From: an uncultured virus (IMG/VR IMGVR_UViG_3300028805_000102)
Lineage: Duplodnaviria; Heunggongvirae; Uroviricota; Caudoviricetes
Virus record (IMG/VR): IMGVR_UViG_3300028805_000102
Length of the DNA: 20,000 nt
Reading direction: 5' to 3' (one strand)
The translations under genes were made by a program, and so were the position numbers. Positions 11,224 through 16,400 of this stretch are shown here, one piece after another (positions within the stretch are counted from its first letter, which is position 1; every line of letters begins with the position of its first letter). The notes under the pieces are model-generated. The model saw nothing but the letters and a program-made list of their open reading frames with translations. It was not told the DNA's origin and searched no databases.

Positions 11224-11733
11224 ATGACAAAATCAAAAGCATTAAAATTGCTTAAACAGCAATTAGAGAAAGATGATACAGTTCTTATTAGCTTATATGA
11301 TATATATAAGAAAGAGCTTCGATATAATCAAGAAATCGTAGAGACAAGAGGTAAGAGCGACTTTCGTCAAGACCTACAGGATTTTGTAATAGAACAGGTG
11401 AAGGTTTCAGACCTCATCAAAAACTTGAAAAAAGAAGAGGTCAAACTTCAAGATATTGTGATAGACGAAAATAAAATAGCAGAAGAAAAATGCTATATGC
11501 CGGAGCTTCGTCCATCATTGACTTACCAAGTGCTTGTGATGGAGATTGAAAAAATCAAAAAGCCACTAATGATTCCAGCCTACATTGTAGAATCTGTTAA
11601 TGAACTTAGTGACTTCATACATAATCCTGAAAATAAGAAGATTCTCGACACTCACGAATATGCTATGAAGAAAATACTTCATGGTTATATCGCAAATGCT
11701 TTTACATCAGTAAATAACTCAATGTTCAGGTAA
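11224..11733 (+). CDS. Hypothetical protein
   Basis: 169 aa ORF 8 nt after the previous gene; helical, charged composition. Confidence 0.75.
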   Translation: MTKSKALKLLKQQLEKDDTVLISLYDIYKKELRYNQEIVETRGKSDFRQDLQDFVIEQVKVSDLIKNLKKEEVKLQDIVIDENKIAEEKCYMPELRPSLTYQVLVMEIEKIKKPLMIPAYIVESVNELSDFIHNPENKKILDTHEYAMKKILHGYIANAFTSVNNSMFR

Positions 11734-11749
11734 TTAAAAATTTGGAATT

Positions 11750-12244
11750 ATGGAAAATTTTAAGACATTCAAAGAATTCAACTTTGACAAAAATGGATAC
11801 ACGGACCTTACAGGTGACAAACAAGAAATAAAGGATTTTCTTATAAAAAACAAAGACTCTCTTCCTGTAAAGGCTGAAATAATGGCAAATGCAACAGAAT
11901 CAGATACAAAGCTTGCAATGCTCTATAACATCTACGGTCTTGTAGACGACTTCGAAATTATAGGTGACGACTTGTATATCCTGTTCTATCCTGTATATTT
12001 CACATACTACAAATATCATTTTACAAGACCTCTGATACTGAAACATTCCGAGACCGGGAAAAATCTACGTTTCGACAAAATGTTTTCATTCATAGTACCA
12101 TACCTGTCAGACCTGCTTACTGGTGCTTTGATGAACGAAGGCTTTTCAAAAGACAAGGCCATAGAGTGGATGAATAAATCTACCAACAAGGAATACTTTA
12201 AAAAAATGACTGGTAGACAAACAGTGAATCCATATGAAAAGTAA
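11750..12244 (+). CDS. Hypothetical protein with a KTFKEF N-terminus
   Basis: 164 aa. The N-terminus MENFKTFKEF resembles the T4 internal-protein capsid-targeting sequence (MKTFKEF/MKTYQEF). Confidence 0.75.
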   Translation: MENFKTFKEFNFDKNGYTDLTGDKQEIKDFLIKNKDSLPVKAEIMANATESDTKLAMLYNIYGLVDDFEIIGDDLYILFYPVYFTYYKYHFTRPLILKHSETGKNLRFDKMFSFIVPYLSDLLTGALMNEGFSKDKAIEWMNKSTNKEYFKKMTGRQTVNPYEK

Positions 12245-12286
12245 AAAGAAAAATTTGAAAAGTTTCGTAATATAGTTATTAAATGT

Positions 12287-12310
12287 TGTTTATTTAATTA
12301 AACTATAAAG
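12287..12310 (+). promoter_or_regulatory. Candidate promoter TGTTTA-N12-TATAAG upstream of the large RNA
   Basis: The same TGTTTA-N12-TAyAA arrangement occurs at 16451-16474 and 18471-18494, all in intergenic positions. Confidence 0.4.
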
Positions 12311-12389
12311 TCAATAACTTGAAAAGATTTGACAGGAGTTCGAGTTCAAACTATACTCCAATAAGTACATTGAAATAATGATAATTTTA

Positions 12390-13045
12390 TACAGCTTGAC
12401 GGTCTGAAACCTAAGTTTAAATAATTTACTGGAAGAACGCCTGCTTTGTAAAGATGTAGATTGCAATAATTCAATCGTCTGATAAGTAGGATATTACAGC
12501 ATCAAGTTGTATTTTAGAAATAATTTTGTGTGCATAGGCGAGAAATCCCTATGTAGAATCTCCTAAATTCGGTGGAAATCCTTATCCTGATATAGAATCC
12601 TAAAACGGTTATGGATATTTTCTATAAAGAGTAGTCGGGAAGAAAGCACTAACTAATAATGTGTAAGGACTATACCGAGCGAAAATGAGATAAATACGAT
12701 GCCAATAGGAGCATAGAAGTAGTATTACTGTTACGCAATATACAGAATCTTATAATCGTGTAGACTGAAAGGGAGATACATAAAGTTGGAATTGAGATTT
12801 AAGCACCTTTGATGGAGAGGGACGTGAAATGATACTCAGCCTATATGGAATAAGTCACGTTGAAATAGCTAAAATATATCTCTACTTGCAAGAATTTCAA
12901 TATGGTAATATCAGTCAAAACCACAACAAACAATAAGGTTGAAAATCCGAGATTGTGTAAATCGAAAATGTAATTACTTGTCATTAAGTCTTGTAATGAA
13001 TTGTTTGTCTATGGTAACATAGTGTGGTAGGGTTTCACAGACCCA
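12390..13045 (+). ncRNA. Large structured RNA with a group I intron-type core (P2-P9), no evident exons and an end-closing helix
   Basis: Pairings read by eye: P2 tgcatagg 12531-38/cctatgta 12548-55; P3 atctcct 12558-64/gggagat 12771-77; P4 ttcggt 12568-73/accgag 12674-79; P5 tcctta 12579-84/taagga 12664-69; P6 gcga 12679-82/tcgt 12756-59; P6a atgagat/atcttat; P7 gactga 12763-68/tcagtc 12911-16; P8 extension ttggaatt 12786-93/aatttcaa 12893-900; P9 accaca 12920-25/tgtggt 13023-28 and acaaacaat 12926-34/attgtttgt 13000-08; closing helix ggtctgaaacc 12401-11/ggtttcacagacc 13031-43. No ORF of 60 aa or more in the gap. Confidence 0.75.
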
Positions 13046-13113
13046 TTTTAAAACAGTACATTAAAATTTTATGATTTATAAATTCTGAGATGTAGAAGTT
13101 AGAATAAACAGAC

Positions 13114-14010
13114 ATGAAAGTAAAAACAAGAAAATTTCCAGAATGTAATTACAATGCGACATGGATTGACGGTAAAACATTTCGAATGGGAGATGGTTTT
13201 GCTAAAGAATTACCAGCAGACAAATCTGAATTTTATGACATTGCCCTTGGCACAATGTGTAACCTAAATTGTCCGTTTTGTTATGCAGAAGCATCAAACA
13301 ACGGTAAATTCTATGATGATATTTGTCAAAAGGCCGAATTGTTTTTTGGTAACATGTCAGAAAACGACAAGCCGTTTCAGGTGGCAATAGGAAGTTTGGG
13401 TGAACCGACAATACATCCGGATTTTATCAATTTTCTAAAAACAATTGCAAAATTTGATATTGTTCCTAATTACACAACAAACGGAATAACATTAACAACA
13501 GAAAACGATTTCCGTGACGAATTGTTAAGTGTTACAGATAAATTATGTGGCGGTGTTGCCATAAGTACAAACGAATGGAATACAAAGATTCAAGAAACGT
13601 GGAGAAAGGCAGTAGAAAACTTATCATACTTTACAAAGACAAAGATAAATTTACACTATGTTGTTTCAGATGAGAACTCTGTTGTTAGGTTTAAAGAAAT
13701 TTATGACGAATATAAAGATAGAATCTTTTATTTTGTATTACTGCCAATGATGGATTCCGGACGTTGTACACAACGGTATAGCGAGAGCGCTTTTAAAAAA
13801 TTGGAAACTATGTGGAATGATTTCGATGTTTCAAAAATATCATTTGGTGCTCATTTTTATCCATTATTGAAAGAAAGCAAAATAATTAATTGTTCATTGT
13901 ACGAACCTGAATCATTTAGTAAAAATTTGATTCTTGACAATCCAATAACGATTACAAGAAGTAGTTTTGATTTAACAGTTTTAAAAACAATAGAATATGA
14001 AAAGAAATAA
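13114..14010 (+). CDS. Radical SAM superfamily protein
   Basis: CxxxCxxC motif CNLNCPFCY, GGEP-like GSLGEPTIHP and NYTTNG. 298 aa with no C-terminal SPASM cysteine cluster. Confidence 0.92.
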   Translation: MKVKTRKFPECNYNATWIDGKTFRMGDGFAKELPADKSEFYDIALGTMCNLNCPFCYAEASNNGKFYDDICQKAELFFGNMSENDKPFQVAIGSLGEPTIHPDFINFLKTIAKFDIVPNYTTNGITLTTENDFRDELLSVTDKLCGGVAISTNEWNTKIQETWRKAVENLSYFTKTKINLHYVVSDENSVVRFKEIYDEYKDRIFYFVLLPMMDSGRCTQRYSESAFKKLETMWNDFDVSKISFGAHFYPLLKESKIINCSLYEPESFSKNLILDNPITITRSSFDLTVLKTIEYEKK

Positions 14011-14590
14011 AATTTTATTCACGTTTAAAATTCAGAGTTTTTCTGATGTTATTACAAACAGTTCAAGCGAATTGTTTGTATTTGACGACAAAGGAGATGT
14101 AGAAAAAGTAAAAGAAATCCTTGATGGTCTTTATCCTGATTGGAGAAGCGAATATGAAGAGCCTGTCTTATTGAAAGATGCGGATGATGCTTCTGTTGAG
14201 TTATATGCTGAATATCTATTGCCAAGGGGCTGGGATTACGACTATCGTGGAGAAACAACAGAAGAATGCAGAAATCTTCTTCGTCAAGATATTAAACATT
14301 TCTTTAATGAAGACGCAAAAAGATTTTATCCAAATATTGATACTTGGGACCCGAAATATAATTGGAGTAATGATAAAAAGTTTAAAAATAAATTATACGA
14401 AGATTTAACAAGAGAAGAAAGGAGTGAAATATGGAGTAAACACGAACTCGAGTGTGATTATGATGAAGTTGTAAAATACTTAAAAGATAATAGACAAAAT
14501 GAAGTATTATTATTTTCATTAGGTGATAATCCTGATTGGGATATGCAGAAAAAACTTCAAACAGTTGCTAACCGCTATCATTTAGGTTAA
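13997..14590 (+). CDS. Hypothetical protein with IQSFSDVITNSSSELF N-terminal motif, copy 1
   Basis: 197 aa, acidic, overlaps the radical SAM gene by 14 nt. Confidence 0.85.
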   Translation: MKRNKILFTFKIQSFSDVITNSSSELFVFDDKGDVEKVKEILDGLYPDWRSEYEEPVLLKDADDASVELYAEYLLPRGWDYDYRGETTEECRNLLRQDIKHFFNEDAKRFYPNIDTWDPKYNWSNDKKFKNKLYEDLTREERSEIWSKHELECDYDEVVKYLKDNRQNEVLLFSLGDNPDWDMQKKLQTVANRYHLG

Positions 14591-14606
14591 AATTTTAATA
14601 TTAAAA

Positions 14607-14981
14607 ATGAAAAAGAGATTTATTATACAAATTCAGAGTTTTTCTGATGTTATTACAAACAGTTCAAGTGAGTTGTTTGCTGTTGGAGATGTAAACAAAA
14701 CAGCAAAAGAAATAAAAAAATTGCTTATACAAAAGTTTAAAGAATCAGGCGATACGTGTAGTGGCATGGAAGGATACATAGAAGTTACTCCATATGATGC
14801 ACCTGATGATATTAATGATTTTGTAATTACAAGTGATAATCTTAAATATGCACGTTATCTTAAAACTTGGAAGAAACTAAATATACCACAAAAAGGTTTT
14901 TTCATTGATATAGATAAGGGTTTATATAATACGATAGAGTTTATCAGAAATGAATTAAAAGGATATTTATTAGATTATTAA
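14607..14981 (+). CDS. Hypothetical protein with IQSFSDVITNSSSELF N-terminal motif, copy 2
   Basis: 124 aa. Identical 16-aa motif, and 40 identical nucleotides (14028-14067 vs 14629-14668), shared with the previous gene. Confidence 0.85.
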   Translation: MKKRFIIQIQSFSDVITNSSSELFAVGDVNKTAKEIKKLLIQKFKESGDTCSGMEGYIEVTPYDAPDDINDFVITSDNLKYARYLKTWKKLNIPQKGFFIDIDKGLYNTIEFIRNELKGYLLDY

Positions 14982-15067: not shown

Positions 15068-16400
15068 AATAGTTCCAAAATCCATAGAAATATGGAAATT
15101 GTTTATAATTTAACAATTACCGGGTGAACTACAACGCCCTCTATCCCATCAAAAAAGACTTTTGGGAATGCTTTTCTCATGATGTTATAGCTTCCGTTCA
15201 CATCGGCATTTATTTTGTTTCCGTTTTCAGAAACAAACAAGCCTCGATGAACACGTTTTCCTTTATAAACATCATGCTTTCCAATTTCTTCCAAATCAAG
15301 GAAACTACATTTGGATGTGTAGCTTTCCTCGTTTGTAATTACTTTTATCCCCACCTTTTCGCATTTGTATGAAACCATCTCGACAAATCTACTGTGAGGT
15401 ATTTGTATGAAGTTCTGGTTGTTTCTTGAACCGGCGTTGCAGTCTTGCTTCCATCCGTCGTTCTTTCCTATAACCAGAACAGATATGCTCTTGTCTTTTA
15501 AATCATTTACTATTCTCTTGCTTGCACGATGCAAGTAGTTGTCAACCTTATTATTCCTTTTGTTTGTAAGTCTTCTTGTCCTGTGTGAATGCTTTTTCTT
15601 ATTGACTTTTTCTAATTTTGACTTATATTTTGCAAGTTCCTTGTTATAGAACTGGTTAATCGATTTCAACGGCTTTCCGTTTATAATTGTCGGCTGTTCT
15701 CCTGATGAATATGTTACTGTAGCAAGATTACTTACTCCTAAGTCTATTGCAGCTATATTCTTGTTGAATTTTACTTTTTCTACATCTTCAATGGTATATA
15801 TTACTTCAATAACATACTGCTCCGTCTTAGGGACAATCCTTATGCAATTTATTGATTTAAAGTTATTTATCTTCGTATAAAATTCTATATCTACTTTTGA
15901 CAGTTTAATTTTATGTGACTTTTCAAAAACCTTCTTTGAAATCGTCTGGTTGTTGAATGTTGCAACATACCTCCCATCTTCCTTATGTAAGAATTTCGGG
16001 AACTTGACGTTTTTGTTATCAATATTTTTTGAACGAAGCATTCCGAAAAAAGAATTGCAAGTTGCATGAACTGATCTTAAAGTCGCTTGCGCAACTTTTT
16101 GAGGAAGCTGTTTGAAGCATTCTTCATTTTTCATGAAGAAATATGAATCATTCAAAATATCATATGTTTTACTTTCCTCGTATTCCTTACGTATCAGATA
16201 CAATGTCCTGTTATATATGTTCTTTGAAGAAAAGCATAGTAAATCACATTCCTTATATAAGGGATGACTTCTTTTAATAATATGTCTTTCCACCAATTGC
16301 ATTTCTGTATAATGATACGTTTACTATTTTATTTATATATTTTCAAAAATACTTGATTTTTAATTTGTTAAATAAATAGAATTATTTCTATAAATTTTCT
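15068..16400 (-). mobile_element. Non-autonomous IS200/IS605-family (IS1341-like) element carrying tnpB only; ends approximate
   Basis: tnpB lies on the opposite strand to its neighbours, with no tnpA in the window. A subterminal hairpin tccata-gaaa-tatgga (15081-15096) lies just past the stop codon. Exact ends cannot be determined without an empty allele. Confidence 0.55.
15103..16302 (-). CDS. tnpB: TnpB RNA-guided endonuclease (IS200/IS605 OrfB), rearranged RuvC-II type
   Basis: N-terminal MQLVERHII...SKNIYN, RuvC-I AAIDLGVSNLA, LVIGKNDGWKQ in place of the usual VIEDL, NEESYTSKCS, and RuvC-III INADVNGSYNI. 399 aa. Confidence 0.93.
   Translation of the reverse strand: MQLVERHIIKRSHPLYKECDLLCFSSKNIYNRTLYLIRKEYEESKTYDILNDSYFFMKNEECFKQLPQKVAQATLRSVHATCNSFFGMLRSKNIDNKNVKFPKFLHKEDGRYVATFNNQTISKKVFEKSHKIKLSKVDIEFYTKINNFKSINCIRIVPKTEQYVIEVIYTIEDVEKVKFNKNIAAIDLGVSNLATVTYSSGEQPTIINGKPLKSINQFYNKELAKYKSKLEKVNKKKHSHRTRRLTNKRNNKVDNYLHRASKRIVNDLKDKSISVLVIGKNDGWKQDCNAGSRNNQNFIQIPHSRFVEMVSYKCEKVGIKVITNEESYTSKCSFLDLEEIGKHDVYKGKRVHRGLFVSENGNKINADVNGSYNIMRKAFPKVFFDGIEGVVVHPVIVKL

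What the first reader, a model, noticed from the sequence alone, without database searches (positions are those of the whole stretch)
12390..13045. Free-standing ~650-nt RNA built on a group I intron core, with no exons and a helix joining its ends
Seen in sequence: the P3/P4/P5/P6/P7/P8 pairings occur in canonical group I order, with P-like AAATTCGGTGGAAA, Q-like ATACCGAGCG, R-like CGTGTAGACTG and S-like AATATCAGTC. P5, P6, P8 and P9 carry large extra domains (for example tcctga/tcggga, tatagaa/ttctata, acgtga/tcacgt, tcatta/taatga, and a ctatg-GTAA-catag GNRA hairpin). There is a ~130-nt 5' domain and a long-range helix 12401-12411/13031-13043 enclosing the whole RNA. It does not interrupt any CDS, tRNA or rRNA: the upstream gene stops at 12244 and the radical SAM gene starts intact at 13114. 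It carries no homing endonuclease ORF. Established knowledge: phage group I introns normally sit inside genes, whereas large ornate phage ncRNAs (ROOL, GOLLD) are free-standing and end-paired. Inference: this is an intron-derived large ncRNA or trans-acting ribozyme/scaffold, or an intron inside an unknown small RNA host.
Basis: partly seen in the sequence, partly recalled or inferred. Interest (0 to 1): 0.9.

Follow-up and report, generated by a model that had tools for sequence, protein, structure and literature searches.

The report
Orphan group I ribozyme gene in phage
A rumen phage carries, between two genes, a stand-alone copy of a self-splicing intron that in related phages sits inside tRNA genes; here it has no gene to splice out of and looks like an RNA gene of its own.

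Summary
The group I core is real. P2-P9, including the P3/P7 pseudoknot, are shared with 22 aligned relatives: 95% of cells pair (36-47% when partners are slid), and 17 of 57 pairs change on both sides.

It is not a new RNA class. By my tally of 30 copies (some by eye):
- 22 lie in tRNA anticodon loops.
- 1 lies in a protein gene.
- 6 lie in no gene. These are the window, L027, L009, two in L016, and L040.
- 1 is truncated.

The window copy is truly exon-less: no ORF under three genetic codes and no tRNA halves. It follows a sigma-70-like promoter.

Its 3' strand is a terminator-type hairpin shared with L027 and L009, and the complementarity is at chance level. The ~130-nt 5' domain is missing from L027.

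In the gene-less copies the exon pairings P1 and P10 look lost by eye, yet the core stays about 92% conserved. My best reading is a non-splicing, stand-alone descendant of a tRNA intron. Function is unproven, and I found no RNA evidence for this copy. Earlier scan notes report phage tRNA group I introns on other DNA, but not this free-standing form.

The parts
12329..12357 (+). sigma-70-like promoter, TTGACA-17-TATACT
   Evidence: 11 of 12 consensus matches, the best site among 11 in 11700-13400. It is the only TTGACA-N16-18-TATA[AC]T site on the + strand of the 123.8-kb record; the script searched that strand only.
12364..12376 (+). motif AGTACATTGAAAT, a probable transcript-start or promoter-associated repeat
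   Evidence: Two copies in the window; 6 of 200 shuffles give two or more. In the whole record, other noncoding + strand copies lie 236 nt upstream of tRNA-Ala and about 200 nt upstream of the tmRNA gene.
   Evidence: No counterpart in L027. No significant match in the other loci. A roughly 94%-identical relative in run X5 has 150 nt where the window has 264 (12382-12647).
12506..12531 (+). 5' motif of the gene-less copies (GTTGTATTTTAGAAATAATTTTG) followed by GUGU at the internal-guide position
   Evidence: Aligns with GTTCTTTGAAA...TGTGC in L027, L009 and both L016 copies. Reading it as a relic of the 5' exon and L1 loop is by eye.
12532..12554 (+). P2 hairpin
   Evidence: 7 pairs, 100% paired, 4 with changes on both sides.
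12558..12573 (+). P3 5' strand, J3/4 (AAA), P4 5' strand
   Evidence: P3 pairs with 12771-77 and P4 pairs with 12674-79. They are 100% and 96% paired and nearly invariant.
12579..12669 (+). P5 (12579-84 with 12664-69), a variable P5 extension, and the conserved hairpin 12647-63
   Evidence: The extension cannot be aligned between copies.
12674..12758 (+). P4 3' strand, P6 (12680-90 with 12748-58) and a variable P6 extension
   Evidence: P6: 9 pairs, 4 with changes on both sides.
12761..12777 (+). P7 5' strand with bulged A12762, J7/3, P3 3' strand
   Evidence: P7 pairs with 12912-17. GACUG/CAGUC changes to GGCCA/UGGUC in 3 relatives.
12786..12917 (+). P8 (12786-93 with 12893-900), its variable extension, J8/7 and the P7 3' strand
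   Evidence: P8 is 97% paired, with 3 pairs changed on both sides.
12918..13031 (+). P9 domain, the conserved GUAA hairpin 13009-22, and G13031 at the omega-G position
   Evidence: The P9 domain is 88.5% identical to that of the tRNA-hosted copy L024. In tRNA-hosted relatives the intron ends at the aligned G.
   Evidence: Folds at -6.3 kcal/mol. It is homologous to AGGGTTTCACAAACCCT followed by a T run of seven or eight in L027, which the scan calls a terminator, and to AAGGATTCACACATCCTTTTTT in L009. The run X5 variant G13040>A makes the stem perfect. The window's own site fails the scan's T-run criterion.
13055..13067 (+). second copy of the motif, AGTACATTAAAAT, ahead of the radical SAM gene

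Best explanation
The element is a stand-alone RNA gene that descends from a tRNA-type (IC3-like) group I intron.

It appears to be transcribed from its own promoter at 12329-57. It folds into an intact group I catalytic core (P2-P9, the P3/P7 pseudoknot, and the bulged-A/G-C guanosine pocket in P7). It ends at a terminator-type hairpin that overlaps the omega-G position.

Shown here:
- It belongs to the family.
- It has no exons.
- It has promoter and terminator signals.
- The core is conserved.

Inferred by eye:
- The pairings that define splice sites are gone. The guide reads GUGU where a neighbouring CUU would need GAG. The sequence after G13031 is GUUU where the UUUU ahead of the guide would need AAA.
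- So the RNA most likely does not splice.

Inferred from recurrence:
- The same exon-less unit, with its own 5' motif and 3' hairpin, sits in unrelated gene contexts in at least four phage genomes. In the 100%-complete phage examined (G001) it is the only copy found.
- The folded ribozyme itself therefore seems to be what is kept. It would act either on other RNAs through its free GUG guide or as a structured RNA.
For: - Core covariation: 95% of cells paired against 36-47% when slid; 17 of 57 pairs change on both sides; 0 of 500 shuffles reach this.
- Relatives are true introns. ARAGORN with introns allowed places the element in tRNA anticodon loops in 13 of 21 loci, 5 of 6 new loci and 2 of 3 new loci. 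In tRNA-Leu(UAA) hosts the cut is CUU/...G/AAAA. L018 gives a continuous 372-aa ORF across the predicted junction. L011 carries a LAGLIDADG ORF.
- The window copy has no ORF and no split tRNA. The close relative L001 lacks the element without restoring any gene.
- Five other gene-less copies exist: L027, L009, L016a, L016b and L040. Four of them (not L040) share the 5' motif and TGTGC with the window. The flanking genes of L027, L009 and L016 are unrelated to the window's and to each other's; L040 was not compared.
- The terminator hairpin is shared by the window, L027 and L009, with a G-C to A-U swap in L009.
- There are no further copies in G000, in the 100%-complete 339-kb G001, or in G002 beyond its two. 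Gene conversion from tRNA-hosted copies in the same genome therefore cannot explain the conserved core.
- Gene-less copies differ from the tRNA-hosted consensus at 4-13% of 165 strongly conserved columns. tRNA-hosted copies differ at 0-11%.
- The promoter matches 11 of 12 consensus positions, and the AGTACATTRAAAT motif is shared with the tRNA and tmRNA region.
Against: - There is no RNA evidence for this copy. In the one metatranscriptome laid (X4), only the family-conserved blocks are covered, by contigs of other members; bins of window-specific sequence such as 12348-12509 have depth 0.
- The whole-region folding z-score is -0.7.
- The window's hairpin has only four U's and fails the terminator scan.
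- The loss of P1 and P10 is read by eye in AT-rich sequence. A weak 4-bp P1 (GCAU at 12499-502 with GUGU at 12528-31) cannot be excluded.
- The tree does not resolve the gene-less copies as one clade; only the window plus L027 pair together, with SH-aLRT 91.
- Peripheral domains are shared with tRNA-hosted copies: the window's P9 with L024 and L016b's P6 with L023. The gene-less copies may therefore be recent spin-offs rather than long-kept genes.
- A truncated copy (L060) shows that relics occur.
- Only six gene-less copies are known.
Confidence: 0.45

Rival explanations
1. It is a neutral or selfish relic. An intron copy lost its tRNA exons, or landed between genes by recombination, and has not yet decayed. 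It does nothing for the phage.
For: - By my tally most family members (22 of 30) are ordinary tRNA introns.
- A truncated copy, L060, sits in a tRNA array.
- Both L016 copies lack the omega-G; L009 has an inserted TATA there, and its G is uncertain.
- Peripheral modules are shared with tRNA-hosted copies, which suggests recent exchange.
- There is no expression evidence.
Against: - A 0.55-0.7 kb useless insert is unexpected in densely packed phage genomes.
- The core stays about 92% conserved at strongly conserved columns, and all 57 core pairs of the window form standard pairs, while the periphery cannot be aligned.
- The same ends recur in four unrelated contexts.
- It is the only copy found in a complete genome.
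Confidence: 0.3
2. It is still a cis-splicing intron, lodged in a non-coding transcript. The exons would be the leader (or the upstream gene's 3' UTR) and the short terminator tail. Splicing would have no coding consequence.
For: - The window and L027 keep a G at the omega-G position.
- Possible short P1 pairings exist by eye: GCAU at 12499-502 in the window, and ACAU in L009.
- Azoarcus-type introns, by recall, use only a 3-nt exon pairing.
- L040 keeps CUU with GAG, and a terminal G.
Against: - L027 and both L016 copies offer no CAU-like partner within hairpin reach.
- There is no P10 complementarity to GUUU.
- The omega-G lies inside the terminator stem.
- L016 lacks an omega-G.
- Splicing would destroy the terminator hairpin.
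Confidence: 0.2
3. It is a long structured leader or riboregulator of the radical SAM operon. The 12401-11 segment would compete with the terminator hairpin, acting as an anti-terminator.
For: - The 11-bp complementarity exists.
- The weak terminator lies 64 nt upstream of the radical SAM start.
Against: - The complementarity is at chance level.
- The leader is absent in L027.
- Other gene-less copies precede unrelated genes.
- L001 has the same radical SAM gene (91% amino-acid identity) without the element.
- The G13040>A variant in run X5 improves the hairpin and would break the long-range pair.
Confidence: 0.05

Closest known systems
Bacterial tRNA anticodon-loop group I introns (subgroup IC3): cyanobacterial tRNA-Leu(UAA) 'Leu.3Ug' and Azoarcus tRNA-Ile(CAU). 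Source: Williams 2020, bioRxiv 10.1101/2020.01.27.920355, part 1 of 2 of the text read.
   Same: - The same core order and the same P3/P7 pseudoknot.
- Relatives of the window element sit at the same sites: CUU/...G/AAAA in tRNA-Leu(UAA), and after CAU in tRNA-Met-like genes.
- The P2 and P9 loops are GAAA-like and GUAA; that Azoarcus has matching tetraloops is recalled, not tested.
   Different: - The window copy has no tRNA exons and no P1 or P10 partner.
- It has its own promoter and a terminator hairpin over the omega-G.
- It carries large P5, P6, P8 and P9 inserts, so it is 500-650 nt against about 200-250 nt.
- Rfam RF00028 finds neither it nor its tRNA-hosted relatives.
GIR1 / lariat-capping ribozyme, a group I-derived ribozyme that no longer splices (recalled from knowledge; no paper read).
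   Same: It is a precedent for a group I core kept after the splicing role was lost.
   Different: - GIR1 sits inside a eukaryotic twin-ribozyme rDNA intron ahead of an endonuclease mRNA, and has a rearranged core.
- No Rfam family of any kind matches here at E<=10 apart from two chance hits.
- No branching site can be named.
ROOL and GOLLD, large ornate RNAs of phages (Rfam families).
   Same: - Large, ORF-free phage RNAs.
- Some copies of this family lie in tRNA arrays (L016, L040). By recall, ROOL and GOLLD often do too.
   Different: No Rfam match. The fold is a group I core. The end-to-end helix is not supported.
IStrons: a group I intron fused to an IS200/605 element (PMC4227781, passages read).
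   Same: A group I ribozyme that can lie outside conserved genes. A TnpB gene lies in the window at 15103-16302.
   Different: The TnpB gene is on the other strand, 2 kb away, with three ORFs between. The other gene-less copies were not checked for a linked IS gene.
Bartonella BbgpI (PMC7717549, passages read): a group I intron first thought to be intergenic.
   Same: It is the same puzzle. [quoted passage not shown]
   Different: Their case resolved into an unannotated tRNA-Arg(CCU) gene. Here ARAGORN with introns allowed finds no tRNA, and the 3' flank has no T-arm by eye.

Membership tests
Group I intron (IC3-like, tRNA type) | P3-P9 helices in canonical order, with the P3/P7 pseudoknot and the P4-P6 stack | tested here: met
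   57 pairs, 95% paired against 36-47% when slid; 17 pairs change on both sides; 0 of 500 shuffles reach this.
Group I intron (IC3-like, tRNA type) | Guanosine-binding P7 with a G-C pair next to a bulged nucleotide | tested here: met
   U12761, bulged A12762, and G12763-C12916. The outer pair is U-A here and G-C in most relatives, read by eye. That this arrangement is the G site is established knowledge, not assayed.
Group I intron (IC3-like, tRNA type) | P1: the 5' exon ends in U, wobble-paired to a G of the internal guide | tested here: inconclusive
   Clear in tRNA-hosted relatives (ACUU|...GAGU; CAU|...GUG). In the window there is only a weak 4-bp option (GCAU at 12499-502), none at the homologous place, and none in L027. 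All of this is read by eye.
Group I intron (IC3-like, tRNA type) | Omega-G at the 3' end | tested here: met
   G13031 aligns with the terminal G of the tRNA-hosted introns. It is absent from both L016 copies and uncertain in L009.
Group I intron (IC3-like, tRNA type) | Interrupts a gene that precise excision restores | tested here: not met
   No ORF. No split tRNA. L001 lacks the element and no gene is restored.
Group I intron (IC3-like, tRNA type) | Match to Rfam Intron_gpI (RF00028) | tested here: not met
   No hit at E<=10. The model also misses the tRNA-hosted relatives. According to Williams 2020, none of the 12 Rfam seed sequences was bacterial, so this failure carries little weight.
Group I intron (IC3-like, tRNA type) | Self-splicing with guanosine | not testable with these tools
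   Needs an in vitro assay.
ROOL / GOLLD / other described large ncRNAs | Match to the family covariance model | tested here: not met
   0 matches at gathering score over the whole window. Over 12200-13150 at E<=10 there were only two chance hits, snoR07 and ST7-AS2.
Stand-alone RNA gene | Own promoter and terminator bracketing the RNA | tested here: inconclusive
   The promoter matches 11 of 12 positions. The hairpin folds but fails the terminator scan in the window and passes it in L027. Transcript ends were not observed.

The most novel reading that the evidence does not exclude
The gene-less copies are a domesticated, non-splicing group I ribozyme gene, kept by selection in rumen phages. 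The RNA would use its intact guanosine pocket and its free GUG guide on other RNAs. One candidate is RNA with CAU in an anticodon-like loop, such as host tRNA-Met or tRNA-Ile2; the phage brings two tRNA-Met genes of its own. Alternatively it would serve as a structured decoy. Either way it would be a free-standing group I-derived ribozyme with a new job in a bacterial virus.
Probability: 0.2. Interest if true: 0.85.

Novelty: new variant of a known kind. Interest (0 to 1): 0.55.

Why it matters
Group I introns are described as residents of tRNA, rRNA and protein genes. One paper (PMC7717549) says outright that an intergenic location would be novel.

Here an exon-less copy recurs in at least four phage genomes. 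In the window and L009 it lies between a promoter-like site and a terminator-type hairpin. If it is maintained, it would show how a selfish intron becomes an RNA gene, and it would be a natural free-standing group I ribozyme to test for trans activity.

If it is only a relic, it still documents a large intron family in phage tRNA genes that Rfam misses. Contigs of that family are deeply covered in a sheep-gut metatranscriptome, with summed contig depth of hundreds to about 2,400 over the conserved blocks.

Tried and rejected
- Alternative genetic codes (TAG=Q, code 4) open no frame across the gap.
- Rfam at gathering score and at E<=10 gave nothing relevant. RF00028 on the whole record also gave nothing.
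- blastn of the gap against 50,697 GenBank phage records gave no match.
- Closing helix: rejected as at chance level and not conserved.
- tRNA or tmRNA host: ARAGORN with introns up to 1300 nt finds none around the window copy.
- Chance pattern hits set aside, because they lack the other core blocks or lie in coding sequence: L019 and L022, L048 and L050, L053 and L054.
- The 20-mer from the leader found nothing in viral contigs.
- The tree of core columns was too poorly resolved to test a single origin for the gene-less copies. L011, L015 and L046 were left out of alignment A1 because of large inserts or truncation.
- A covariance model could not be built, because A1 has 859 columns and the limit is 400.
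- Metatranscriptome run X4 gave no cover of window-specific sequence. This is no evidence either way.
- Pfam found no family for the L018 host gene.
- Literature searches turned up no report of a free-standing group I RNA gene in phages. These searches cover open-access text only.

Full report
**Setting**

The window is positions 52145-72144 of a 123.8-kb viral record with an estimated completeness of 49%. Pfam finds a family B DNA polymerase, an N6/N4 methylase, a radical SAM protein (13114-14010) and an IS605-type TnpB on the minus strand.

Between the stop codon at 12244 and the start at 13114 lie 869 bases. No reading frame spans them under code 11, TAG=Q or code 4, and there is no tRNA.

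**Is the group I core real?**

Rfam gives nothing at gathering score. At E<=10 it gives two chance hits. The minimum-free-energy z-score is only -0.7. None of that settles the matter, so I looked for relatives.

- A 19-nt string spanning P3, J3/4 and P4 found 21 loci in viral contigs. 19 of the 21 carry all five conserved blocks in the same order.
- Two further pattern scans added nine new loci. A metagenome scan added L027.
- I placed P2, P3, P4, P5, a small conserved hairpin, P6, P7 (as a pseudoknot with P3), P8 and the GUAA hairpin on a 23-sequence alignment. The result:
  - 95.0% of 1300 cells form standard pairs, against 36-47% when partners are slid.
  - 17 of 57 pairs change on both sides, in 65 cells.
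  - 0 of 500 shuffles reach these values.
- Examples of compensatory change: P7 GACUG/CAGUC becomes GGCCA/UGGUC, and P2 AUA/UAU becomes UAU/AUA.

The group I architecture is confirmed.

**What the family is**

ARAGORN with introns allowed puts the element inside the anticodon loop of a tRNA gene in:
- 13 of the first 21 loci;
- 5 of 6 new loci;
- 2 of 3 further new loci.

L021 and the truncated L015 show tRNA halves by eye.

In tRNA-Leu(UAA) hosts the junctions read CUU/intron...G/AAAA. This is the classical site noted by Williams 2020 (bioRxiv 10.1101/2020.01.27.920355, part 1 of 2 of the text read). In tRNA-Met-like hosts the 5' exon ends in CAU, facing GUG in the intron.

L018 lies in a protein gene. 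Joining at the predicted sites gives an unbroken 372-aa frame through a P-loop-like TKGGKS. L011 carries a LAGLIDADG endonuclease ORF in P8.

Rfam RF00028 misses even the tRNA-hosted members. This fits Williams' remark that none of the Rfam seed sequences was bacterial.

My tally over 30 copies:
- 22 are tRNA-hosted, 20 by ARAGORN and 2 by eye.
- 1 is in a protein gene.
- 6 are in no gene.
- 1 is truncated (L060).

Earlier notes of this scan also report group I introns in phage tRNA genes on other DNA.

**The window copy and its like**

Six copies are in no gene: the window, L027, L009, two in L016, and L040.

- The gene-less copies other than L040 read TGTGC at the guide position, as do tRNA-Met hosts. 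They are preceded by GTTCTTTGAAA-like sequence. L040 reads AGTGC.
- The flanking genes of L027, L009 and L016 are unrelated to the window's and to each other's; L040 was not compared.
- Homology between the window and L027 runs from about 12514 to 13049.
- In L027 only about 45 nt separate the upstream stop codon from P2.
- A roughly 94%-identical relative seen in run X5 has the element at the same locus, but with 150 nt instead of 264 between 12382 and 12647.

**The 'closing helix'**

The 3' strand (13031-43) is a hairpin, GGGUUU-CAC-AGACCC, followed by AUUUU.

- In L027 the same hairpin is perfect and followed by a T run of seven or eight. The scan calls it a terminator.
- L009 has AAGGAU...AUCCUU followed by U6, which is a G-C to A-U swap.
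- The X5 relative has G13040>A. This perfects the local stem and would break the proposed long-range pair with C12404.
- The best duplex between the leader and the 3' end is matched by 43 of 1000 shuffles and by 18 of 228 other stretches of the window.

I reject the closing helix.

**Transcription signals**

- TTGACA-17-TATACT at 12329-57 matches 11 of 12 consensus positions. It is the only such site found on the record's + strand, the only strand the script searched.
- Seven bases later begins AGTACATTGAAAT. This motif recurs at 13055, ahead of the radical SAM gene. It also recurs upstream of tRNA-Ala and of a phage tmRNA gene elsewhere in the record.
- L009 has a 9-of-12 promoter-like site 43 nt upstream of its copy.
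- The record's 19 tRNA genes carry no intron of this family, and a BLAST of the element finds no second copy in the record.
- G001 (339 kb, 100% complete) holds only its gene-less copy. G002 holds only its two.

**Can it splice?**

This part is read by eye. tRNA-Leu members pair ACUU|AG with UUGAGU (P1), and UUU with the AAA of the 3' exon (P10). The gene-less copies offer CUU against GUGU, which gives a U-U clash, and GUUU after the terminal G. The omega-G lies in the terminator stem. Both L016 copies lack that G. A weak GCAU/GUGU pairing at 12499-502 cannot be excluded.

The core is nevertheless kept. The gene-less copies differ from the tRNA-hosted consensus at 4-13% of 165 strongly conserved columns, against 0-11% among tRNA-hosted copies.

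Peripheral domains are mosaic. The window's P9 domain is 88.5% identical to that of tRNA-hosted L024, with compensatory A-U to G-C changes read by eye.

**Verdict**

This is a stand-alone, probably non-splicing descendant of a phage tRNA group I intron. It is not a new RNA class and not an end-paired ornate RNA.

Whether it is kept for a function (my leaning, 0.45), is a relic (0.3), or still splices in a non-coding transcript (0.2) cannot be decided without RNA data. The one metatranscriptome laid covers only the family-conserved blocks, through contigs of other members.

Open-access literature searches found no described free-standing group I RNA gene in phages. PMC7717549 (passages read) calls an intergenic location novel, though its own case dissolved into a hidden tRNA.

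Noticed in passing
G000:C1:32269-32615 (L055 970-1316), outside the window: The phage encodes a full-length tmRNA (Rfam RF00023, 89.7 bits, E 1.3e-34). It sits inside its array of 19 tRNA genes at C1:31979-36242.
   Followed up: partly
window 12364-12376 and 13055-13067; G000:C1:31743 and 32060: The 13-nt motif AGTACATTRAAAT occurs four times on the + strand in non-coding DNA, each time ahead of an RNA gene or an operon. It may be a phage promoter or a transcript-start signal.
   Followed up: partly
window 15103-16302 (-): An IS605-type TnpB gene (OrfB_IS605 plus a Cas12f1-like TNB domain) lies on the opposite strand to its neighbours. I did not look for its guide RNA or its element ends.
   Followed up: no
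L040 1646-2541: A tRNA-Leu(UAA) gene is split at the anticodon loop by an ~810-nt insert. The insert encodes a 243-aa protein with an HNH-like motif (HHIDKNPNNN...NH, by eye). No core of this intron family was seen in it. It lies 46 nt downstream of a gene-less copy of the ribozyme.
   Followed up: no
L016 1428-2729 (302-kb contig): Two gene-less ribozyme copies flank a tRNA-Arg(UCU) gene in a tRNA array. Their 5' and 3' flanks are near-identical, but their P5, P6, P8 and P9 inserts are unrelated. The flanks AAATTCAT and ATGTAATTT could pair, by eye.
   Followed up: partly
L056, L063 (and L060): A sister branch of the family sits in tRNA-Met(CAU) genes. It has a changed P4 (ACGGU/ACCGU) and a changed P7. 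L060 is a copy truncated after J8/7 and wedged between tRNA genes.
   Followed up: partly
window 13114-14981 and L001: The radical SAM gene and the ORFs after it are about 90% identical in L001. An earlier scan note on other DNA describes this radical SAM enzyme with tagged partner proteins. I did not study it here.
   Followed up: no
window 12248-12305 and G000:C1:101722-101780: A 58-nt stretch just after the upstream gene's stop codon is repeated at 83% identity in another intergenic spot of the record.
   Followed up: no
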